Source: an uncultured delta proteobacterium (lineage in GTDB: Bacteria > Myxococcota_A > Polyangia > Haliangiales > Haliangiaceae). From it: a stretch of DNA of 64,000 nt. Positions within the stretch are counted from its first letter, which is position 1. Every line of letters begins with the position of its first letter. Both the position numbers and the translations under genes were made by a program. The notes under the pieces are model-generated. The model did not search any database, was not told where the DNA came from, and saw only the letters and a program-made list of their open reading frames with translations. Positions 793-40,946 of this stretch are shown here, piece by piece. The stretch spans positions 5,470-69,469 of the forward strand of contig CAVZFC010000035.1 of NCBI GenBank assembly GCA_963774445.1, read 5' to 3'.

Positions 793-3700
793 GTGGCTCG
801 AGAACCACAGGTTCCGGGGACGTTGGGGGTCCTGGACGAGCGTTTCGAGCTGCTCTCGCAGCTGGGGCGGGGCGGCATGGGCATCGTCTATCGCGCGTTC
901 GACCGCGAGCGCGGGGTGCAGGTGGCGGTCAAGACGCTGCAAAGCCTGGAGCCCGATCAGGTGCTACGGCTCAAGGCCGAGTTTCGCGCGCTGCGCGACC
1001 TGCGCCATCCTAACCTGGTCGAGCTCGGCGAGCTGATCGAACAGAACGGCAACTGGTTCTTCACCATGGAGCTGGTCGAGGGGGCGACCTTCATCGACCA
1101 CGTACGCGGCGCGGTGCAGCTCCAGGACTGGAGCGTCTCCAGCGAATCGATGGAGGGCAGCGCGACGGCGTCCGAGACCGAGGCCACGCTTCCGTCCGCC
1201 GACCGCGGCGCCGATCGGCCGACGGTGCGCGAGCTGGGCGGGCGAGCGCAGCAACCGCAGTGCGACTTGCAGCGACTGCGGAAGGCGCTGGCCGGGCTCG
1301 CGCGCGGTCTGGTCAGGCTGCACGAGGCGGGCAAGGTCCACCGCGACGTCAAGCCGTCGAACATCGTGGTCGCGCCCGACGGTCGGGTGGTGCTGCTCGA
1401 CTTCGGCGTGGTTGCAGAGCTGGCCGCCTCGCGCGCGTTCGAGCGCGGCCGGTTGATCGGCACCGCCAGCTACATGGCGCCGGAGCAGGCCGCGCGCGCC
1501 GAGGTTGGTCCCGCCGCGGACTGGTACGCGGTCGGGGTGATGCTGTTCGAGGCGCTGACCGGGCGGCTGCCGTTCGCCGGCGACCGCGACGACATCCTGG
1601 CGCGCAAGCAGGCGTTCGGCGCGCCGTGGCCGAGCGACGTCGCCGACGGTGTGCCCGCCGAGCTGGATCGCCTGTGCGCGCAGCTGCTCGAGCGTGATCC
1701 GGCGCGGAGGGCGACGGCGCCCGCGGTGTTCGACGTGGTCGGTGCCGATCGGTCGGCGGAGGCCGCGGCGTGGGTGCCGCCGTCCACGGAGGGGCGGTTG
1801 TTCGTCGGCCGCGCCGAGCAGCTCGACGCGCTGCGCGGCGCCTTCGCCGCCAGCCGGGAGCACGCGGTTTGCGTCTTCGTCGAGGGCGAGTCCGGAGTCG
1901 GCAAGAGCGCGCTGGTCGATCACTTCGCCCGCACCGTCAGCGCCGAGGACGAACATCTGCTCGTCCTCCGCGGTCGCTGCCACGAGCGCGAGCGCGTGCC
2001 GTACAACGCGTTCGATGGCGTGGTCGACGATCTGACGCGCCATCTGCTCGGGCGCCTGCCGTCCCGGGTCGATCGCCTGGTGCCCGACGGCGTCGATGCC
2101 CTGCTGCAGCTCTTCCCCGCGCTGCGAACGGTCGAGTCGTTCGCCCGGCGCGCCGGCGAGCGCCCGACGCGGTCCGCGTCCGAGGTGCGCCGGGATGCGT
2201 TCGCCGCGGTGCGTGCGCTGCTGGGACGCCTGGGCGCGCGGCGCGCGGTATTGCTCGTCGTTAACGACGTGCAATGGGCCGATGGCGACAGCGTCGTGCT
2301 GCTCGAAGAGATCGCGCGCGGTGCCGACGCGCCGGCCGTCTGCATCGTTGCCACTCAGCGCAGCGGAACCGGACGCGCGGTGTCGGCCGAGGTTGGCCGC
2401 GTTGCCCAGGAGCTGCGGCGGATCGAGCTGGGTGGGCTGACCGAGGCCGAGAGCTCGGCGCTTGCGGAGAAGCTACTGGCCGGGGTGGTGCGGTCGGTTG
2501 ACGCTGGCCAGATCACGGCCGAAGCGGGCGGGCACCCGATGTTCATCCGCGAGCTGGTGCACCACGCCGCGCAGCGCCACGCGGCGGGGGAGCCGTTGCT
2601 CCTGGACGAGGCGCTGCGCACGCGGGTGCGGGCGCTGGACGCCGACGCCCGCGCCCTGCTCGAGGCGGTCGCCGTGGCCGGCGCGCCGATCGCGCAAGAG
2701 ATCGCGTTCGCAGCGGCCGGCACGAGTCGCGCCGCGGTCGCAGCCAGCGTGCCCGCGTTGCAGTCGGGCCGACTGATTCACGTCCGCGGCGGGCGCCGGA
2801 CCGATCCGATCGAGCCCTACCACGATCGGGTCCGCGAGGCGGTCTACGTCAGCCTCGACGACGACCGCCGCCGGCAGCTCCACGGCGCCATCGCCTCCGG
2901 GCTGGAGGCGGCGGGCGCGCCGCCGGAGGCGTTGTTCGAGCATTTCGAGGCCGCTGGCCTGGCCGACCGCGCACGGCAGTACCTCGAGGCTGCCGCCGAC
3001 GCAGCGTTTGTCAGCATGGCGTTTGCGCGCGCCGCCGAGCTGTACCGCCGGGCGCTGGCCGAGGAACACGACCCCGACCGTCGGGCCGCGCTGCACGAGA
3101 CCCTGGGCGACGCGCTGTCGAACGACGGCCGCTCGGTCGAGGCGGCCGAATGCTACATGGACGCCGCGCGCGCCGCCGGCGATCCGATGCACGCGCTCGA
3201 CCTGCAGCGCCGCGCGGCCGAGCGATTCCTCATGAGCGGGCACCACCAGCGCGGGCTCGAGGCGGCGCGGCTGGTGCTGCGCGAGCTGGGCATGTCGATG
3301 CCGTCGTCGACGGCGCGGATCATCGCCGGTATCCTGTGGAACCAGTATCGCTTACGCCGCCACCCGCTGACCTGGACGCAGCGCTCGCCGACGGAGCGCG
3401 GGCGGCTGGCGGCCAACGTCTTCTGGTCGTTCGGCTCGGGCTTGTCGATGGTCGAGATCCTCCGCGGCGCCTACTTCGCCAGCCGCTCGCCGCTGCTCGC
3501 CCTCGAGCACGGCGAGCCGACCGAGATCGCGCGGGCGCTGAGTGGCGCGGCAGTCAGTGCCGCCATCACGGGGCGCGGCGACGAGGTCGACAAGCTGCTC
3601 GACGCCACCCGCCGCGCCGCCGACGAGGCCGACACACCGCTGGCGCGCTACTGGGCGCAGCACGCGCGGTCGGCGACCCTGTTCGTCCACCACAACGACT

Positions 3701-4563
3701 GGCGCGGCTGTCTCGAGCTGGTGCCCGAGATCCGGCGCTTGTGGCGCGAGTGCGGCCGCGGGTCGGGCTGGGAGACCGACGTCATCACCCACTTCGAGTG
3801 CTCGTCGTACCAGCTGCTGGGCGAGTACGGCCGGCTGGAGGGGCGCGTACGCGAGGCGGTGCGCGAGGCCGAGCTGACCGGCAACCTGTTCCTCGAGGTC
3901 AGCCTGCGGGTGCGCTTCGCCGGCCGGTTCCTCGTCCGCGGCGACTGGCAGCGGGCCAAGAGCGAGATCGACGACGCCCTCGCGGCGTGGCTGCCGGAGA
4001 GCGACACCTTTGGCAACCAGCGCGCCTGGGCGCTGTGGAGCATGACCCGGGTGGCGCACTGCTCGGACGACTTCGATCGCTTCGTCCCCGAGCTCGACGA
4101 CCAGTGGCGGACCATGCGCCGGTCGCTGACCGCGCGGGTCAAGCTGATGCAGATCGAGTGGCGCGCCACCCACGGCACCTATCTGTGCGGCAAGGCGCTG
4201 TCGGCCCGGCGCCGCGGCGCCGGCAGCGAGCACGCCCGCGCGCTGGGCGAAGCCGAGCAGCACGCCCGGGCGCTGGCGCGCCTGTCGATGCCGGCTGCGG
4301 CACCGACCGAGTGGCTGCTGCGCGCCGCCATCGCCTGGGCGAAGGACGATCAAGACCGCGCGCTGGTCGACACCCGCCGCGCCCTGCGCGAAGCGCGCGC
4401 GCATCCCACCACCGTGTTCGAGACCCCGCTGATGCTGCGCCTGGGCGAGCTCCTCGGCGGCAGCGAGGGCGAGGCGTTCATCGCCGAAGCCGAGCGCATC
4501 GCCACCGCCCGGGGAATCAGCGACTTGCGACTCTTCGCCGAGCTGGCGATCCCGACGCGCTAG
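793..4563 (+). CDS. Ser/Thr protein kinase with C-terminal AAA+ ATPase and TPR-like regulatory region
   Basis: N-terminal Hanks-type kinase motifs are present: G-loop GRGGMGIVY, VAVK, HRDVKPSNIV and DFG. The downstream Walker A (GESGVGKSAL) is followed by a long helical repeat region, which is typical of large myxobacterial STKs. Confidence 0.85.
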   Translation: MAREPQVPGTLGVLDERFELLSQLGRGGMGIVYRAFDRERGVQVAVKTLQSLEPDQVLRLKAEFRALRDLRHPNLVELGELIEQNGNWFFTMELVEGATFIDHVRGAVQLQDWSVSSESMEGSATASETEATLPSADRGADRPTVRELGGRAQQPQCDLQRLRKALAGLARGLVRLHEAGKVHRDVKPSNIVVAPDGRVVLLDFGVVAELAASRAFERGRLIGTASYMAPEQAARAEVGPAADWYAVGVMLFEALTGRLPFAGDRDDILARKQAFGAPWPSDVADGVPAELDRLCAQLLERDPARRATAPAVFDVVGADRSAEAAAWVPPSTEGRLFVGRAEQLDALRGAFAASREHAVCVFVEGESGVGKSALVDHFARTVSAEDEHLLVLRGRCHERERVPYNAFDGVVDDLTRHLLGRLPSRVDRLVPDGVDALLQLFPALRTVESFARRAGERPTRSASEVRRDAFAAVRALLGRLGARRAVLLVVNDVQWADGDSVVLLEEIARGADAPAVCIVATQRSGTGRAVSAEVGRVAQELRRIELGGLTEAESSALAEKLLAGVVRSVDAGQITAEAGGHPMFIRELVHHAAQRHAAGEPLLLDEALRTRVRALDADARALLEAVAVAGAPIAQEIAFAAAGTSRAAVAASVPALQSGRLIHVRGGRRTDPIEPYHDRVREAVYVSLDDDRRRQLHGAIASGLEAAGAPPEALFEHFEAAGLADRARQYLEAAADAAFVSMAFARAAELYRRALAEEHDPDRRAALHETLGDALSNDGRSVEAAECYMDAARAAGDPMHALDLQRRAAERFLMSGHHQRGLEAARLVLRELGMSMPSSTARIIAGILWNQYRLRRHPLTWTQRSPTERGRLAANVFWSFGSGLSMVEILRGAYFASRSPLLALEHGEPTEIARALSGAAVSAAITGRGDEVDKLLDATRRAADEADTPLARYWAQHARSATLFVHHNDWRGCLELVPEIRRLWRECGRGSGWETDVITHFECSSYQLLGEYGRLEGRVREAVREAELTGNLFLEVSLRVRFAGRFLVRGDWQRAKSEIDDALAAWLPESDTFGNQRAWALWSMTRVAHCSDDFDRFVPELDDQWRTMRRSLTARVKLMQIEWRATHGTYLCGKALSARRRGAGSEHARALGEAEQHARALARLSMPAAAPTEWLLRAAIAWAKDDQDRALVDTRRALREARAHPTTVFETPLMLRLGELLGGSEGEAFIAEAERIATARGISDLRLFAELAIPTR

Positions 4564-36564: not shown

Positions 36565-38823
36565 ATGCGCTGTGCGGTCGTCCTGGCAGCCGGCGCGCTG
36601 GTTGCCGGCTGTGGTAGCGACCACGGCGACGAGCGTGTGGGTCGCGATGGCTCGGTGATGCAGGTCGCCGAGGCTCCTTCGACGGTACGTATCGACGCGG
36701 GAGTGCCGCCGCTGGAGCGGTCGTTGTTCGACCTGGTCAACAACCGTCTGCTGGTCCACCGCGAGCGTGGCGACGCGGTGGTGATCGATGCCGGGTCGCC
36801 CACGTTCGCCCGCAACACCCGCTTCCACCGCTTCCACCGTCCCACGCACTGGCACCTGGGGCGTCACGTCGGCGACGTGGCGGTGGCAAAGATGGAGCCG
36901 TACGCCGAGCTGGTGATCCCGCTCGACGCCGATCGCGTGGCCGCGACCCGCGCGATCACCTTGCACATGTGGTCACCCGAGCGGCGGTCGCTGCGGGTGG
37001 CGATCAACCGCAACACCCACGACCGTGGGGTGTTCGTCGGTCACCTGGCCGCCGGCTGGCAGAACCTGACCGTGCCGGTGGTCGAGGGGATGCTGCACGC
37101 CGGTACCAACGTCCTCGCGCTGCGTGGCAGTCGCGACCTGGCGCTGTCGTGGGCACAGGTCGGTGGCGACCCGCCCGACGTCAACGCGCTGCCACCGATC
37201 CACGACGGCAACGCGCTGCTCTTGCGCGGCGGCGAGCGACTGGTCTACTACGTCTGGGTGCCGAAGAAGTCGGTGCTGCGCGGCCAGGTAGCGGGGCACG
37301 GTTGCCGGGTGTCGGTGCACGCGCGCACCGAGGACGGCGGCGAGGCCGAGGGGACGATGGGCGAGGGCGTCGAGTTGGGCGCGCTGGCAGGCAACGTGGC
37401 GCGGCTCGAGCTGGCGGCCAAGGGCTGCGACCAGGCGCGCCTGACCGACGCGGCCATCGCCGTGCCCGGCGACGAGCCGGAGCCCGCGCAAGGGCCGCCG
37501 CCCAAGTACGTCATCGTGTGGATGATGGACACCCTGCGCGGCGACAAGGTGCGCACGGTCAACCCGGATGCCCGCGCCGAGGTGCCCAACATGATGGAGC
37601 TGGCCAAGACCGGCGCCACCTTCCGCCAGTACTACACCCACGGCAACGAGTCGCAGACCTCGCACGCGTCGCTGTGGACGTCGCTGTTTCCGGTCAACCA
37701 CCACGTCATCACGTCGGGCCCGACCACGCACTACCAGCTGTCCAAACGGTTCGACGCCATCGGCCGGCAGATGAAAGAGGCCGGGCTGCGGACCATTGCC
37801 ACGACGTCGAACGGCACCATCACCAACTGGAGCGGCTACACCCGCAACTTCGACGTGTTCGACAACCTGATGCACGACGGCACCGGCAAGAAGCTGGGCT
37901 GGCGGGTGCCGGGCAACGTGGTGCTGGACCGGGCGTTCGCCAAGATCAAAGAGTCGGGCGGGCACGACGATCCGTTCTTCCTGTTCATCGGCACCACCGA
38001 CACGCACAAGCCGTGGTACGGCCACGAGCCGTGGCTGTCGCGTTACAGCCCCGACTACAAGGGCGAGTTCCAGACCCACGTGCTCAGCGCCCAGCTGGGC
38101 ATCCCCAAGGGGACCCACATCTGCAAGCGCAAGCTGAAGAAGCGCGACTTCGATCGCGTGCTCGCGATCTACGACTCGGGGGTGAGCTTTCAGGACGCGC
38201 AGCTGGGGCGGCTGGTCGATCAGCTGAAGAAGTGGGGTATCTTCGATCAGACGCTGCTCATCGCCACCGCCGACCACGGCGAGGAGCTGTGGGAGTACCC
38301 GCGCCGTTGCGGCCACGGTTCGTCGCTGCGCGAGAGCTTGATCCACGTGCCGCTGCTCATCCACTACCCAGCGCGTGTGCCGCACGCCATGGTCACCGAG
38401 GGCGTCGACGAGGTCGACATCTTGCCGACGATCCTCGACGCGCTGGGCCGGCCGGAAATGCCGGAGGCCCAGGGCGAGTCGCTGATCCCGCTGATCTCGG
38501 GGGTCGGGCGCGGCTATCCGCGGCCGTCGTACGCGACCATGAACGGCTGGTCGCACACCTTCCGCATGGATCACTGGAAGGCGACCATCGATGCGCGCGG
38601 CCAGCTGTTCCTGTTCGACGTCACCGCCGATCCGAATCAGCGCCACGACCTGGCCGACACCAAGCTGTACGAGCGGGCGATGCTGACCGATGCGCTGTCG
38701 CTGTTCGTGCCGCGCCGCGCGGTGTGGAAGAAGCGGCGCTGGGACGTGGCCTCCAACCTGCCGCCCGGAGCGGCCGACGAGATCGAGGCCGGTGAAAGCG
38801 GCGGAGCGGAGGCGCGCCGGTGA
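36565..38823 (+). CDS. sulfatase family lipoprotein with N-terminal extension
   Basis: Lipobox VAGC, sulfatase core (VIVWMMDTLRGD, ATADHGEELWEY, HVPLLIHYP), and an additional N-terminal domain of about 280 aa. Confidence 0.75.
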   Translation: MRCAVVLAAGALVAGCGSDHGDERVGRDGSVMQVAEAPSTVRIDAGVPPLERSLFDLVNNRLLVHRERGDAVVIDAGSPTFARNTRFHRFHRPTHWHLGRHVGDVAVAKMEPYAELVIPLDADRVAATRAITLHMWSPERRSLRVAINRNTHDRGVFVGHLAAGWQNLTVPVVEGMLHAGTNVLALRGSRDLALSWAQVGGDPPDVNALPPIHDGNALLLRGGERLVYYVWVPKKSVLRGQVAGHGCRVSVHARTEDGGEAEGTMGEGVELGALAGNVARLELAAKGCDQARLTDAAIAVPGDEPEPAQGPPPKYVIVWMMDTLRGDKVRTVNPDARAEVPNMMELAKTGATFRQYYTHGNESQTSHASLWTSLFPVNHHVITSGPTTHYQLSKRFDAIGRQMKEAGLRTIATTSNGTITNWSGYTRNFDVFDNLMHDGTGKKLGWRVPGNVVLDRAFAKIKESGGHDDPFFLFIGTTDTHKPWYGHEPWLSRYSPDYKGEFQTHVLSAQLGIPKGTHICKRKLKKRDFDRVLAIYDSGVSFQDAQLGRLVDQLKKWGIFDQTLLIATADHGEELWEYPRRCGHGSSLRESLIHVPLLIHYPARVPHAMVTEGVDEVDILPTILDALGRPEMPEAQGESLIPLISGVGRGYPRPSYATMNGWSHTFRMDHWKATIDARGQLFLFDVTADPNQRHDLADTKLYERAMLTDALSLFVPRRAVWKKRRWDVASNLPPGAADEIEAGESGGAEARR

Positions 38824-39941
38824 AGGCGACCGCGGTGGTGGCCGCCGCCGGCCTTGGCGCGCTGGCCATCGCCTGGTCCTGTGCGCACGGAGGGTCGCCA
38901 GCGCCGGTCGCCGCCATGCCCGCGGATGCCGGAGTCGCGCGGGCGCCGGATGACGCCGCGGCTCCGTCGGGGCCGCGCTGGCTCAAGGGCAACACCCACA
39001 CCCACACCGGCGTGTCCGGCGACAGCCAGACCGATCCCGACGACGTCGTGCGCTGGTACAGCGAGCACGGCTACGACTTCGTCGTCTTCACCGATCACAA
39101 CATGGTCACGACCCACGCCGGCAACGACCGGTTGCTGGTGCTGCCCGGCGTCGAGCTCACGCACAACCCGGAGCACTGCGAGCCGCCGCCGCCGGAGCCC
39201 AACGGCAAGTGCCGCATCCACGTCAACGCGCTGTTCGTGCGCGAGCATCCGACCGAGAAGCTGGAGTGGCAGGACGACAAGGTGGTCAACCGCGTGGGCA
39301 AGTACCAGCTGGCATTCGACGAGGCCAAGCGGCTGGGCGGGTTGATCCAGGTGAACCACCCCAACTGGCACTGGGGCGTCAACGGGCCGCTGTTGACCGA
39401 GCTGGCGCGGCGGGGCGCGGTGCTGGTCGAGATCGCCAACCAGGCGTTCGTTCCCTGGAACGTCGGCCGGCCGGGCAAATACCCGTCAACCGAGGAGGTG
39501 TGGGATCAGGCGCTGACGGCGGGCGCGCGGATCTGGGGCGTGGCGTCGGACGACGCGCACAACTACTACGACGTGCCGTTCCAGCGCGAGCACGGCTACG
39601 GCTACGGCTACCCGCCCGGCTACGGCTACGTCATGGTCTGGGCGAAGAAAGAGCCGGCCGCCATCCGCGCGGCGATGGAGGCGGGGCGCTTCTACGCATC
39701 GACCGGCGTCCAGCTCGAGCGCGCCGAGGTCGAGGACGGCGAGCTGGTGGTAGCGGTCGCGCCCGGCGGCTTCCCGCCGTACACCATCGTCTTCATCGGC
39801 ACGGGCGGCGCCGAGCTGTCCCGTCACGAAGGCGTCGACCGCGCCGCCCAGCCCCTCGTCGCCGACGGCTACGTGCGCGCGGTCGTCATCGACAAGTACG
39901 GCCAACGCGCCTGGGTCCAACCGCACGGGGACGCTCGTTAA
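38820..39941 (+). CDS. PHP-domain metal-dependent phosphoesterase (CehA/McbA-like), secreted
   Basis: The GTG start overlaps the sulfatase stop (GTGA). Motifs GNTHTHTGVSGD and FTDHN, plus a signal peptide. The protein contains an internal GYGYGYPPGYGY repeat. Confidence 0.7.
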   Translation: MKATAVVAAAGLGALAIAWSCAHGGSPAPVAAMPADAGVARAPDDAAAPSGPRWLKGNTHTHTGVSGDSQTDPDDVVRWYSEHGYDFVVFTDHNMVTTHAGNDRLLVLPGVELTHNPEHCEPPPPEPNGKCRIHVNALFVREHPTEKLEWQDDKVVNRVGKYQLAFDEAKRLGGLIQVNHPNWHWGVNGPLLTELARRGAVLVEIANQAFVPWNVGRPGKYPSTEEVWDQALTAGARIWGVASDDAHNYYDVPFQREHGYGYGYPPGYGYVMVWAKKEPAAIRAAMEAGRFYASTGVQLERAEVEDGELVVAVAPGGFPPYTIVFIGTGGAELSRHEGVDRAAQPLVADGYVRAVVIDKYGQRAWVQPHGDAR

Positions 39942-40105
39942 CCGCACGGGGACGCTCGTTAGTTTTTCACTTTCTTCTCCCGCAATTTCGGGGCCTTGAC
40001 TCCCCCCTAGTCGCACCTTCTCCACAGCCTGCGACAGGGGGTGACTCAACCCCACGGAATCCAACGGAAAAGAAGTGGAAAACTAACGAGCGTCCCCAAA
40101 TGGGG
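39919..40105. repeat. MITE-like / structured intergenic element: 21-bp tandem duplication + ~33-bp terminal inverted repeats + nested internal palindrome
   Basis: An exact tandem copy of AACCGCACGGGGACGCTCGTT lies at 39919-39939 and 39940-39960. The left arm (39947-39980) pairs with the right arm (40066-40097, reverse-complemented) at about 30 of 33 positions. An inner inverted repeat pairs TTGACTCCCCCCTAGTCGCA with TGCGACAGGGGGTGACTCAA. The element is AT-richer than the genome, and the arms supply the GDAR-stop codons of both convergent flanking genes. Confidence 0.6.
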
Positions 40106-40946
40106 TGGTGCAGGGGGGGCCGGGGGCGAACTGGTAGTGGGCGACGGTGCCGGGGGCCAGGGCCAGGAGGGTGGCGGAGCGGGTGCCGTAGTTGGGGGTG
40201 TGGATGCAGACGGCGTGGAGCTTGCGCACGAAGTCGGCGGCGAAGCGGGAGCCGGGGGGCAGAGACGGGAGGCTGTCCGGGGCAGGCTGCTGGTGGTCGG
40301 CGAGGGCGCCGATGAGGGCAGCGCGCAGCTCGGGCCAGGGGGCGTGCACGGCCGGCTCGACCAGCTCGCGGACGCGCTCGACCTTGGGGAACTCGGGCGA
40401 GTCGATGCAATCGTTGGGCAGGACGTGCAGGCCAGGCGGCATCTCCACGATGTCAACGTGCGCGGCTTCACGTCGGCCGTACGCCACCTCGACCCCACCC
40501 GCGTCTCCATAGATCAGGTTGAACGAGTTGTAGCGCCCCGGGTCCAGGCGCTCGAGCCTCGCCCGCACCGCCTCCCGCGTACCCAGCTCGAGCGCCCCGA
40601 CGACCAGCGGCCCGCGCGACTCGAGTGATGGGTCCGGCCCGGTATACGTCCGCTGGTTGGTCACACCGGCGAAGAAGCCGCCCGGGGTAACCCCGAGCCA
40701 GGTCCCGCCCGAGGAGACGTCCAAGCCACCGATCACACGCGGCTCTTCCACCAGCACCTGCGGCGGCTTCGCCTCGCGCGCGTAGATCTCGTCCCGATTG
40801 GCCGCCAGGACCAGCGGCAGGTCGTCGCGCACCCGGTTCAGCACCACGAAGGTACACACCTGGCCGGCATACCACGCCTCCCCCGCGAAAGCGTTTGACC
40901 ACGCCCCGGCCTTGGCTATGCTCGGACCTTCGTGAGCGCTCCCCAT
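40083..40946 (-). CDS. NRDE family protein (DUF833/TANGO2-like)
   Basis: LAANRDE motif. The product is 287 aa, and its last codons lie inside the right inverted-repeat arm. Confidence 0.75.
   Translation of the reverse strand: MGSAHEGPSIAKAGAWSNAFAGEAWYAGQVCTFVVLNRVRDDLPLVLAANRDEIYAREAKPPQVLVEEPRVIGGLDVSSGGTWLGVTPGGFFAGVTNQRTYTGPDPSLESRGPLVVGALELGTREAVRARLERLDPGRYNSFNLIYGDAGGVEVAYGRREAAHVDIVEMPPGLHVLPNDCIDSPEFPKVERVRELVEPAVHAPWPELRAALIGALADHQQPAPDSLPSLPPGSRFAADFVRKLHAVCIHTPNYGTRSATLLALAPGTVAHYQFAPGPPCTTPFGDAR

What the first reader, a model, noticed from the sequence alone, without database searches (positions are those of the whole stretch)
39919..40105. MITE-like inverted-repeat element that supplies the last four codons of both convergent flanking genes
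Between the PHP gene (+) and the NRDE gene (-) sits a ~190 bp AT-richer element in a 70% GC genome.
- A 21-bp sequence AACCGCACGGGGACGCTCGTT is exactly tandemly duplicated (39919-39939 and 39940-39960).
- ~33-bp terminal inverted repeats (39947-39980 and 40066-40097, about 30 of 33 positions matching) enclose a further nested imperfect palindrome (TTGACTCCCCCCTAGTCGCA / TGCGACAGGGGGTGACTCAA).
- A CCCCAAATGGGG palindrome sits at the right end.
- Both flanking proteins end in the identical G-D-A-R-stop encoded by the GGGGACGCTCGTTA arms, so the element or its duplication has rewritten both gene 3' ends.

This could be a miniature transposable element, a REP/BIME-like repeat, or a structured bidirectional terminator or antisense RNA locus. 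The spurious ORFs encoding LTSVPVRLTSVPVRL are artefacts of it.
Basis: seen in the sequence. Interest (0 to 1): 0.72.

Follow-up and report, generated by a model that had tools for sequence, protein, structure and literature searches.

The report
Transposon-derived hairpin repeat capping two genes
The 150-bp hairpin between two convergent genes is a non-coding, two-armed copy of a small mobile element whose full-length relative encodes a tyrosine (HUH) transposase, and its ends replace the last codons of both neighbouring genes; it is a new member of a described but little-studied family (TIRYT/TIRtron).

Summary
Two ~68-nt units lie in inverted orientation (39948-40015, 40030-40097; 14-nt spacer). 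An exact 21-bp tandem duplication spans the left junction. Both flanking genes end in G-D-A-R-stop, read from the unit terminus GGGGACGCTCGTTAG.

It is not a one-off. A related Myxococcota MAG at ~88% identity holds at least 11 units: solos, two dimers, and one 1.18-kb copy. In that copy the same units bracket a 342-aa gene. Its product models as a REP-associated tyrosine transposase (best PDB match 4er8) fused to a DnaA-domain-IV helix-turn-helix.

This is the TIRYT/TIRtron architecture of Di Nocera 2013, subclass 2.1 of Quentin 2018. Of 60 metagenomic relatives, 39 show the same inward-facing GGGACSS termini.

Orthologous loci show presence/absence. Two relatives have an empty site where the TANGO2 gene ends ADAL*/ADVL*. 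Two have the dimer, in opposite orientations. No target-site duplications occur, as expected for HUH transposition.

The hairpin shows no compensatory change, no U-tract and no Rfam match. It is therefore a by-product of the inverted units, not a selected RNA.

All 13 unit ends abut a gene 3' end, eight of them in the GDAR* frame. The one empty site mimics the unit terminus (11/15). This suggests, but does not prove, pseudo-end targeting.

Verdict: new member of a known kind.

The parts
39948..40015 (+). Left unit (arm) of the dimer. Conserved outer block GGGGACGCTCGTTAGTTTTTCACTTTCTTC (39948-39977), a variable middle, then the conserved inner block CCCCTAGTCGCA. This is the 'A' subtype (..TTGACTCCCCCCTAGTCGCACC).
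   Evidence: Inverted repeat I1. Gapless alignment with 12 other units, 31 invariant columns. nhmmer E 6.5e-19.
40016..40029 (.). 14-nt spacer (hairpin loop) between the two units. The length is the same in the three dimers seen (window, L003, L005), but the sequence differs.
40030..40097 (-). Right unit (arm) of the dimer, read on the minus strand from 40097. GGGGACGCTCGTTAGTTTTCCACTTCTTTT ... CCCCCTGTCGCA. This is the 'B' subtype (..TTGAGTCACCCCCTGTCGCAGGC).
   Evidence: (E 2.9e-17).
39919..39961 (+). Exact tandem duplication, period 21, 2.05 copies. Each copy holds 8 nt of the PHP gene end (AACCGCAC) plus the first 13 nt of the unit terminus (GGGGACGCTCGTT). The first copy is a truncated extra terminus and supplies the PHP gene's GDAR codons. 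The copy junction creates the TAA stop (39939-39941).
   Evidence: Relatives L011 and L012 have ...CCGCA(C/G) TGG AAG AAC TGA at this point.
38820..39941 (+). PHP-domain gene. Its last four codons and its stop come from the truncated terminus copy. Orthologues end ...WVQPHWKN* (L011), ...QWKN* (L012) or ...QWKH* (L003).
40083..40946 (-). TANGO2/NRDE-family gene. Its last four codons and TAG stop (40083-40097) are the terminus of the right unit. Orthologues without the element end PFADAL* (L012) and QFADVL* (L011).
39963..39971 (+). DnaA-box-like 9-mer TTTTTCACT (8/9 to TTWTNCACA) inside the conserved terminal block. Its mirror TTTTCCACT lies at 40074-40082 (-). Candidate binding site for the transposase's DnaA-domain-IV-like helix-turn-helix (inference).
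   Evidence: 3 of the window's 14 matches fall in this 150-nt element.

Best explanation
**What it is.** The feature is a non-autonomous dimer of terminal-inverted-repeat units from a TIRtron. A TIRtron is a small mobile element whose autonomous form is a ~1.18-kb cassette: unit, gene for a Y1/HUH tyrosine transposase fused to a DnaA-domain-IV-like helix-turn-helix (a 'TIRYT'), inverted unit.

**Unit layout.** Each ~68-nt unit has three parts:
- a family-wide terminal motif, GGGGACG(C/G);
- a T-rich block with two ~8-nt boxes, TTTTTCAC and TTTTTTC;
- an inner GTCGCA block.

**Proposed mechanism (inferred).** The helix-turn-helix binds the boxes. This positions the HUH domain to nick at or near GGGGACGC. 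The dimer is moved in trans, probably through single-stranded DNA, and leaves no target-site duplication.

**History at this locus.**
- The dimer landed on the overlapping stop codons of two convergent genes. It replaced 9 nt of a native sequence, GCCGACGCT, that resembles its own terminus.
- The TANGO2 gene therefore now ends GDAR* instead of ADAL*.
- In the window's lineage the alkD-like gene on the other side was then lost, which fused the PHP gene to a unit terminus. The 21-bp junction was duplicated in tandem.

**The hairpin.** It follows from two units lying head to head. Any effect on the 3' ends of the two mRNAs is secondary.
For: **Shown**
1. *Multi-copy family.* The 19-mer terminus hits 7 loci of one related MAG and nothing else except one 22-nt chance match. 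A profile finds 15 units, all E < 1e-14: solos, dimers, and one cassette in each of two genomes.
2. *Autonomous copy.* L002 2681-3857 and the Logan contig L009 carry the same units, inverted, around a 342-aa ORF.
3. *The ORF is a TIRYT.*
   - NCBIfam REP_Tyr_transpos E 5e-7, below its curated cut-off; Bac_DnaA_C E 8e-6.
   - 13 of 32 homologues hit Pfam Y1_Tnp and 26 of 32 hit Bac_DnaA_C.
   - H60, H62 and Y118 (YIHNNPV) are invariant.
   - AF2 model pLDDT 92. Foldseek top hit is 4er8_A, the REP-associated tyrosine transposase (E 7e-6, TMt 0.72), followed by ISDra2 and IS608 TnpA and by DnaA domain IV.
4. *Family-wide architecture.* 39 of 60 metagenomic relatives have inward-facing GGGAC[GC][GC] on both sides of the gene, followed by direct 8-9-nt boxes. 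This matches the published TIRtron description (PMC3733652, PMC6006769).
5. *Presence/absence.* L011 and L012 are empty; the window and L003 are filled. The identity quartet is ((window, L011), (L003, L012)). The dimer is inverted between the window and L003: 128/152 against 120/157.
6. *No target-site duplication* at any dimer or cassette (read).
7. *Gene ends.* All 13 outer ends abut the 3' end of a high-GC3 frame. Eight read (G/R)DAR*.

**Suggestive**
- The empty site GCCGACGCTCTATAG matches the terminus at 11/15. It is the single best match in L012. The background rate is 18 per 127.6 kb.
- The Asp of that site is native to the TANGO2 family: 73 of 117 homologues.
Against: - No transposase gene lies in the 64-kb window. 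The window holds only this one copy. The rest of the window's own genome could not be searched, so copy number and activity in this organism are unknown.
- Transposition by a TIRYT has never been shown experimentally (PMC3733652, PMC6006769). The link here is by association.
- The terminal motif GGGGACGC departs from the published GGGGWSAS at one position.
- Pseudo-end targeting rests on one direct empty/filled pair. The second site, XthA in L006, gives only weak indirect support: 13 of 119 homologues end F(G/R)D.
- A JGI metagenome scan for the terminus found nothing. The exact family is so far seen only in a few related genomes.
Confidence: 0.8

Rival explanations
1. It is a selected structured element: a bidirectional terminator or mRNA-stabilising hairpin, or a small RNA gene. 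On this view its repetition reflects function, not mobility.
For: - Very stable hairpin on both strands.
- It sits exactly between convergent genes.
- One weak terminator-like motif (5-bp stem plus T5) at 39946-39969.
- REPs and MITEs are known to stabilise upstream mRNA (background in PMC3733652).
Against: - No Rfam match even at E <= 10.
- The 150-nt hairpin has no U-tract after it on either strand. The terminator-like hit is within chance: 1 found against 0.4 +/- 0.8 expected.
- Between the window and L003, none of 4 two-sided changes keeps a pair, and most one-sided changes break pairs. The middle 26 positions pair at only 9-14 of 26.
- Close relatives do without it.
- Solo units that cannot form the hairpin are as common as dimers.
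Confidence: 0.08
2. It is a classical MITE: an internally deleted DDE-type insertion sequence mobilised by a DDE transposase.
For: Long terminal inverted repeats, small size, AT-richer than the host, located at gene ends.
Against: - No target-site duplication at the window dimer, L003, L005 or the full-length L002 copy.
- The only ORF ever bracketed by these repeats is a Y1/HUH protein.
- Solo units are frequent.
Confidence: 0.04
3. History rival. The dimer was inserted once in the common ancestor of all four genomes. It was later flipped by recombination between its identical 30-nt arm ends, and it was lost precisely in the L011 and L012 lineages. On this view there were not two independent insertions at the same site.
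For: - The junction on the TANGO2 side is at the identical nucleotide in the window and L003.
- The 26-29/30 identical inverted ends could support inversion.
- HUH elements are known to excise precisely (IS200/IS605; established knowledge).
- The event count (two) equals that of the two-gain scenario on the quartet.
Against: - The filled site lacks 9 native nucleotides, GCCGACGCT. Excision therefore could not simply restore ADAL*, yet both empty sites carry it.
- The Asp codon in the empty sites is the family-conserved residue.
- This history needs an inversion as a third event.
Confidence: 0.3
4. It is a local scar: a palindrome generated in place by inverted duplication or replication slippage, with no mobile family behind it.
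For: An exact 21-bp tandem duplication at the left edge shows that local slippage did occur here.
Against: The same units occur at unrelated loci of a related genome and around a transposase gene. The two arms belong to different unit subtypes that recur elsewhere.
Confidence: 0.02

Closest known systems
TIRtron / TIRYT systems (Di Nocera, De Gregorio & Rocco 2013, PMC3733652). This is subclass 2.1 (2.1.2) of TnpA_REP in Quentin et al. 2018 (PMC6006769).
   Same: - A RAYT-like Y1/HUH gene with a C-terminal Bac_DnaA_C-type helix-turn-helix.
- The gene is bracketed by terminal inverted repeats that are not themselves palindromes and that start with a GGGG-rich motif.
- The repeats are also scattered in the genome as singles, dimers and groups.
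   Different: - The terminal motif is GGGGACG(C/G), not GGGGWSAS.
- The host is an uncultured Myxococcota lineage.
- Documented here but, as far as I found, not in those papers: an empty/filled orthologous site, opposite orientations at one site, systematic placement on gene 3' ends with an in-frame stop, and DnaA-box-like boxes next to the motif. Quentin et al. had noted that GGGGWSAS does not resemble a DnaA box.
REPIN / RAYT systems (Bertels & Rainey 2011, PMC3116915; Nunvar 2010; the TnpA_REP structure 4er8)
   Same: - Two inverted units form a ~100-150-nt hairpin.
- The element is non-autonomous.
- A related Y1/HUH enzyme gene is flanked by the same repeat.
- No target-site duplication.
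- Best structural match of the enzyme.
   Different: - A REP unit is a 20-40-nt palindrome tagged with GTAG. The 68-nt unit here does not fold on its own (z about 0) and has no GTAG tag.
- The enzyme carries an extra DnaA-like DNA-binding domain.
IS200/IS605 insertion sequences (IS608, ISDra2)
   Same: - HUH/Y1 catalytic fold.
- No target-site duplication.
- The insertion target is expected to resemble an element-end cleavage site.
   Different: IS200/IS605 ends are asymmetric subterminal hairpins without terminal inverted repeats. Those elements have no helix-turn-helix fusion and use a short (4-5 nt) fixed flanking target.
Bacterial MITEs at gene ends (ERIC, Correia/NEMIS, RUP) and Rickettsia RPEs that insert in frame
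   Same: A small hairpin-forming repeat co-transcribed with neighbouring genes. It can alter coding ends without destroying the gene.
   Different: Those are linked to DDE transposases with TA or other duplications, or have no known enzyme (RPE). The enzyme family here is HUH/Y1.

Membership tests
TIRtron / TIRYT-associated TIR repeats | The repeat brackets, in inverted orientation, a gene for a RAYT-like Y1/HUH tyrosine transposase. | tested here: met
   L002 2681-3857 and L009: units on both sides of a 342-aa ORF. Fold match to 4er8_A E 7e-6. Y1_Tnp hit in 13 of 32 homologues. Seen in related genomes, not in the window itself.
TIRtron / TIRYT-associated TIR repeats | The transposase carries a C-terminal helix-turn-helix of the Bac_DnaA_C/HTH_23 type (subclass 2.1). 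| tested here: met
   Bac_DnaA_C in 26 of 32 homologues. PDB profile hits to DnaA domain IV, E about 1e-5.
TIRtron / TIRYT-associated TIR repeats | The TIR begins with the GGGGWSAS motif. | tested here: inconclusive
   The terminus is GGGGACGC, 7 of 8 (G where the consensus has A). 39 of 60 metagenomic relatives carry GGGAC[GC][GC] on both sides; a few carry GGGGTCAG. The published motif was reported as fitting only some of the TIRs.
TIRtron / TIRYT-associated TIR repeats | The unit is a TIR, not a self-complementary REP. | tested here: met
   Single units fold no better than shuffles, z -0.9 to +1.5. The alignment fold finds only a 4-bp closing helix.
TIRtron / TIRYT-associated TIR repeats | The repeats are dispersed in the genome as single, dimeric or grouped copies. 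| tested here: met
   Related MAG: 5 solo units, 2 dimers, 1 cassette. For the window's own genome only 64 kb could be searched, which holds 1 dimer plus 1 truncated terminus.
REP / REPIN (RAYT-mobilised) | The unit is a short (20-40 nt) imperfect palindrome with a 5' GTAG tag. | tested here: not met
   68-nt unit, not palindromic, no GTAG.
REP / REPIN (RAYT-mobilised) | Two inverted units separated by a short spacer form the mobile hairpin. | tested here: met
   Window, L003 and L005 dimers, each with a 14-nt spacer.
DDE-type MITE | Terminal inverted repeats flanked by a target-site duplication. | tested here: not met
   Flanks GCAC/AAAT (window), GTTC/ACTA (L003), CCTC/ATCT (L005), GGCT/TTGC (L002): no duplication.
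Rho-independent terminator | A GC-rich hairpin followed directly by a U-tract. | tested here: not met
   The hairpin is followed by AAAUGGGG (+) and GUGCGGUU (-). The scan gives one weak site, within chance.
Curated structured RNA (Rfam 15) | A match to a covariance model, or compensatory base changes. | tested here: not met
   No relevant hit at E <= 10. None of 4 two-sided changes keeps pairing.
IS200/IS605 | Asymmetric ends with subterminal hairpins and no TIR; a fixed short target 5' of the left end. | tested here: not met
   The ends are ~68-nt inverted repeats. The 4 nt outside the 11 termini have no consensus.
Active transposition by the TIRYT enzyme | The enzyme binds and cleaves the termini and moves the element. 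| not testable with these tools
   Only indirect evidence: presence/absence and opposite orientation at one orthologous site.

The most novel reading that the evidence does not exclude
This TIRYT element family may choose targets that mimic its own GGGGACGC terminus ('pseudo-end capture').
- Asp-Ala codons (GAC GCN) fit that motif. The terminus itself reads Gly-Asp-Ala-Arg-stop.
- Insertions that survive would therefore sit on the last codons of genes, recurrently and in either orientation, and would re-code them almost conservatively (ADAL* to GDAR*).
- The neighbouring TTTTTCAC boxes would be the long-sought binding site of the DnaA-domain-IV-like helix-turn-helix of subclass-2.1 transposases.
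- If so, this would be the first concrete target-site and end-recognition model for TIRYTs, and an example of a transposon built to be tolerated at gene ends.
Probability: 0.25. Interest if true: 0.65.

Novelty: new member of a known kind. Interest (0 to 1): 0.42.

Why it matters
- **An untested enzyme class.** TIRYT/TIRtron elements were named in 2013 and placed in the HUH phylogeny in 2018. No mobility, target site or role for the DnaA-like domain has been shown.
- **What this locus provides.** It offers a clean natural experiment: the same site empty in two relatives and filled in two, in both orientations. It also gives a defined 68-nt unit with conserved blocks and a full-length partner gene. 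That is enough to design binding and cleavage assays.
- **Annotation.** In these high-GC genomes, gene 3' ends reading ...GDAR-stop, and short antisense ORFs such as ...LTSVP..., are repeat-derived.
- **Limits.** None of this changes the general picture of bacterial repeats. It extends a known family to Myxococcota.

Tried and rejected
- **Rfam at a permissive threshold**: only a chance miRNA-model hit outside the element.
- **JGI metagenome scan** for ACGCTCGTTAGTTTTYCACTT and **IMG/VR scan** for the 19-mer: no hits. No extra copies, and no phage link.
- **Source record of the window.** An exact look-up of the window's TANGO2 product found nothing, and P0028 was not on record. The source record and the rest of the genome stayed out of reach.
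- **PDB sequence-profile search**: found only the DnaA-like domain. The HUH domain needed a structure prediction and Foldseek.
- **A hairpin inside the single unit.** I looked for a REP-like or IS200-like subterminal stem. Neither alifold nor single-sequence folds support one.
- **A second empty/filled pair through the XthA gene next to the L006 unit.** The closest homologue is only 66% identical, so there is no orthologous empty site. Tails of distant homologues give weak support only.
- **A recombination tract to explain the divergent PHP gene.** Identity is patchy: 0.79 at the N-terminus and 0.86 in the last 340 nt. No clear tract.
- **Source names for the transposase** (cluster look-up): none.
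- **L007** (Candidatus Cybelea): only 22 nt match, so chance.
Full report
**1.

Between the PHP-domain gene (38820-39941, +) and the TANGO2/NRDE gene (40083-40946, -) lies a 150-nt imperfect palindrome.
- Its arms are 39948-40015 and 40030-40097: 68 nt each, 74% complementary, with a 14-nt spacer.
- It folds at about -99 kcal/mol on either strand. The z-scores are -8.6 and -7.9, and none of 200 shuffles folds as well.
- GC drops to 0.57-0.61 in a 0.70-0.78 background.
- The 21-bp sequence AACCGCACGGGGACGCTCGTT is exactly duplicated in tandem at 39919-39960.
- Both genes end G-D-A-R-stop, read from GGGGACGCTCGTTA(G/A) in the true coding frames, which have GC3 of 0.93-0.94.
- The PHP stop TAA is created by the junction of the two 21-bp copies.

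**2. It belongs to a repeat family**

The terminal 19-mer GGGGACGCTCGTTAGTTTT occurs twice in the window against 0.01 expected. In a collection of 185,579 species-representative genomes it hits seven loci of a single MAG. That MAG is an uncultured deltaproteobacterium, CAVUQH01. One further hit is a 22-nt chance match.

A profile built from the copies recovers 15 units with E between 1e-15 and 1e-19. They align without gaps, with 31 invariant columns. Each unit has three parts:
- a conserved outer block of 30 nt, GGGGACGCTCGTTAGTTTTTCACTTYTTTC;
- a variable middle of about 26 nt;
- a conserved inner block, CCCC(T/A)GTCGCA.

The units occur as solos (L001a, L001b, L004, L006, L008) and as dimers with a 14-nt spacer (window, L003, L005). 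In L002 they flank a 342-aa ORF in inverted orientation, at 2681-3857. A 1168-nt Logan contig from another sample, L009, is one such cassette. It is broken inside both termini, as expected for a repeat that collapses an assembly graph.

**3. The bracketed gene is a TIRYT**
- By sequence it hits NCBIfam REP_Tyr_transpos weakly (E 5e-7, below the curated cut-off) and Bac_DnaA_C.
- Among 32 homologues, 13 hit Pfam Y1_Tnp and 26 hit Bac_DnaA_C.
- H60-x-H62 and Y118 (in YIHNNPV) are invariant.
- An AlphaFold model has mean pLDDT 92. Its best PDB match is 4er8_A, the E. coli REP-associated tyrosine transposase bound to a REP hairpin (E 7e-6, TM 0.72 on the target). ISDra2, IS608 and IS200 transposases follow. 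The C-terminus matches DnaA domain IV.
- Some JGI records of homologues are labelled 'REP element-mobilizing transposase RayT'.

**4. The architecture is family-wide and already named**

In 60 metagenomic loci of homologues with enough flank, 39 carry inward-facing GGGAC[GC][GC] on both sides of the gene. The background is 0.65 per kb per strand. Twenty-six of them have more than one terminal copy on a side.

After the motif come two direct boxes of 8-9 nt. An exact repeat of 6 nt or more is present in 36% of termini, against 3% of shuffles.

Di Nocera et al. 2013 called such genes TIRYTs and the cassettes TIRtrons. They noted a GGGGWSAS motif and repeat families organised as singles, dimers or groups (PMC3733652). 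Quentin et al. 2018 placed them in TnpA_REP subclass 2.1, which has Bac_DnaA_C/HTH C-termini and no REP nearby (PMC6006769).

The window element is therefore a TIR dimer of a new Myxococcota member of this family. A single unit is not a palindrome, so it is not a REP in the strict sense. No copy has a target-site duplication, so it is not a DDE-type MITE.

**5. Orthologous loci give the history**

Four versions of the locus are available.

| Locus | alkD-like gene | Dimer | TANGO2 end | PHP end |
|---|---|---|---|---|
| L012 | intact | absent | PFADAL* | QWKN* |
| L011 | 56-nt remnant | absent | QFADVL* | HWKN* |
| L003 | intact | present | FGDAR* | QWKH* |
| window | absent | present, plus the 21-bp duplication | FGDAR* | HGDAR* |

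- In L012 the alkD-like and TANGO2 genes overlap on the palindrome CTATAG, which holds both stop codons.
- By nucleotide identity the quartet is ((window, L011), (L003, L012)). The window and L011 are 95% identical in TANGO2 and 95.5% in the sulfatase gene. L003 and L012 are 90-92% identical. Cross-pairs are 85-92%. Presence or absence therefore needs two events.
- The dimer is inverted relative to the flanks between the window and L003: 128/152 identities in the flipped alignment against 120/157 collinear. The diagnostic A and B subtype blocks are swapped.
- The simplest reading is two independent insertions at the same nucleotide, in opposite orientations.
- The alternative is one gain, an inversion and two precise losses. 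It is weakened because the filled site lacks 9 native nucleotides.

**6. What insertion did to the genes**
- Empty site (minus strand): ccgttc GCCGACGCT CTATAG gtg.
- Filled site: ccgttc [GGGGACGCT...AGCGTCCCC] A CTATAG gtg.
- Nine native nucleotides are replaced.
- The native 15-mer GCCGACGCTCTATAG matches the unit terminus at 11 of 15 positions. It is the only site with 11/15 or better in the 5.2-kb L012 locus. In the window's background such matches occur 18 times per 127.6 kb of positions, about 1.4e-4 per site.
- The Asp codon within it is native to the family: 73 of 117 TANGO2 homologues have (F/L)xD there. The empty sites are therefore ancestral, not footprints.
- The protein change is conservative: ADAL* to GDAR*.
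- The PHP end has a different origin. The alkD-like gene and the last three PHP codons are missing, a unit terminus is fused to ...CCGCAC, and the 21-bp junction (8 nt of gene plus 13 nt of terminus) is duplicated.
- Multiplied, truncated termini are common in the family. L010 has a 30-nt array of 3.9 copies, and 26 of the 39 loci have extra terminal copies.

**7. Gene-end placement is a family trait**

For all 13 outer ends examined, a high-GC3 coding frame runs toward the unit and stops within it or at most 7 nt before it.

| How the abutting gene ends | Number of ends |
|---|---|
| Reads (G/R)DAR-TAG from the unit terminus | 8 |
| Uses a TAG that straddles the boundary (TA\|G) | 2 |
| Stops 1 or 4 nt before the unit boundary | 2 |
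| Runs 11 codons into the unit in another frame | 1 |

- Of the nine genes that read into a unit, eight use the GDAR frame. The chance of this is about 1e-3 if frames were equiprobable. It is about 3e-3 if the TANGO2 site is counted once.
- Two explanations fit, and they are not exclusive. One is purifying selection for the shortest tail. The other is targeting of GACGC-containing pseudo-ends, which in high-GC3 genes are mostly in the Asp-Ala frame.

**8. The hairpin is not a selected RNA**
- There is no Rfam match at E <= 10.
- No U-tract follows the hairpin on either strand. The single terminator-like hit is within chance.
- Between the window and L003 dimers, none of 4 two-sided changes preserves pairing, and most one-sided changes break pairs.
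- Pairing is high only in the conserved blocks: 26-29 of 30 positions in the outer block and 10 of 12 in the inner block. It is poor in the middle, at 9-14 of 26 (gapless register, so approximate).
- Conservation thus tracks the unit's sequence blocks, not the helix.
- A secondary role at the 3' ends of both mRNAs remains possible but was not tested.

**9. Mechanism: shown and inferred**

*Shown:*
- the repeat family;
- the cassette with a Y1/HUH plus helix-turn-helix gene;
- presence/absence at an orthologous site;
- the absence of target-site duplications;
- the re-coding of gene ends.

*Inferred:*
- The TIRYT moves the dimer in trans.
- The GGGGACG(C/G) motif is the cleavage or recognition site.
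- The helix-turn-helix binds the adjacent boxes. In this family those boxes read TTTTTCAC(T), 8 of 9 to the DnaA box TTWTNCACA.
- Three of the window's 14 such near-matches lie in this 150-nt element. The element's AT-richness inflates that count.
- The window has no TIRYT gene, so the status of the system in this genome is unknown.

**10. Verdict**

The element is a new member of the known TIRYT/TIRtron kind.

Three details may be new for that family: an empty/filled site occupied in both orientations, placement on gene ends with a built-in stop codon, and a target that mimics the element's own terminus. The targeting model rests on a single direct site, so it is offered as the novel case and not as the conclusion.

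Noticed in passing
window 39919-39948 compared with L003 2841-3560, L012 945-1649 and L011 5461-5509: An alkD-like DNA-alkylation-repair gene (Pfam DNA_alkylation) lies between the PHP and TANGO2 genes in L003 and L012. It is reduced to a 56-nt start-plus-end remnant in L011 and is absent from the window. These look like two independent losses in close relatives.
   Followed up: partly
L012 936-950: In the empty site the convergent alkD-like and TANGO2 genes overlap by the palindrome CTATAG, which holds the TAG stop of both strands. The dimer inserts exactly beside this palindrome.
   Followed up: yes
window 39584-39926 (also 38785-38984): The last ~340 nt of the PHP gene are only 86% identical to L011, although the flanking sulfatase and TANGO2 genes are 94-98% identical. 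The PHP N-terminal region is 79% identical. This could be local recombination or relaxed constraint next to the element.
   Followed up: partly
unit positions 50-52 (window 39997-39999 on +; 40046-40048 on -): In the +1 frame entering a unit, a stop codon sits at positions 50-52 in 12 of 15 units and at 47-49 in one more. TGA, TAG and TAA alternate inside the otherwise variable region, and T50 is invariant in the 13-unit alignment. This could be a maintained translational stop or a recognition base. It remains unexplained.
   Followed up: partly
L010 3817-3925 and 5012-5143: A 48%-identical TIRYT gene has different termini, (C)CCGGAGTTAAG...CTTAACTTTTTTCCTCCGCGATTTCG. Upstream there is a 69-nt duplication. 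Downstream there is a 30-nt array of truncated termini, 3.9 copies. The ..ACTTTTTTCC..CGCAATTTCG stretch resembles the window unit.
   Followed up: partly
L013-L092 (metagenomic TIRYT loci): 41 of 127 GGGAC[GC][GC] termini are preceded by TA or TAG (for example TAGGGGACGG). Many units also carry CGCAA(C/T) about 25-30 nt inside the terminus, as the window unit does (CCCGCAATT). This extends the published GGGGWSAS description.
   Followed up: partly
window 39963-39971, 40018-40026, 40074-40082: Three of the window's 14 near-matches (at most 1 mismatch) to the DnaA box TTWTNCACA lie within the 150-nt element. One is on each arm and one is in the spacer.
   Followed up: partly
L001 4134-4204: A diverged solo unit (GGGGACGCTCATTAG...) is entered by a high-GC3 gene in a different frame. 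That gene runs 11 codons into the unit (...GRSLVFHFFHE*). It is the only exception to the GDAR or flush-stop pattern.
   Followed up: no
L009 1-1168: A Logan contig consists of exactly one TIRtron. Its product is 81% identical to the L002 one, and the contig is cut inside both terminal repeats. This suggests the termini are repeated in that sample's genome too.
   Followed up: no
L007 6302-6323: The only hit outside the Myxococcota MAG, in Candidatus Cybelea, shares just 22 nt with the unit and nothing beyond. It is treated as a chance match.
   Followed up: yes
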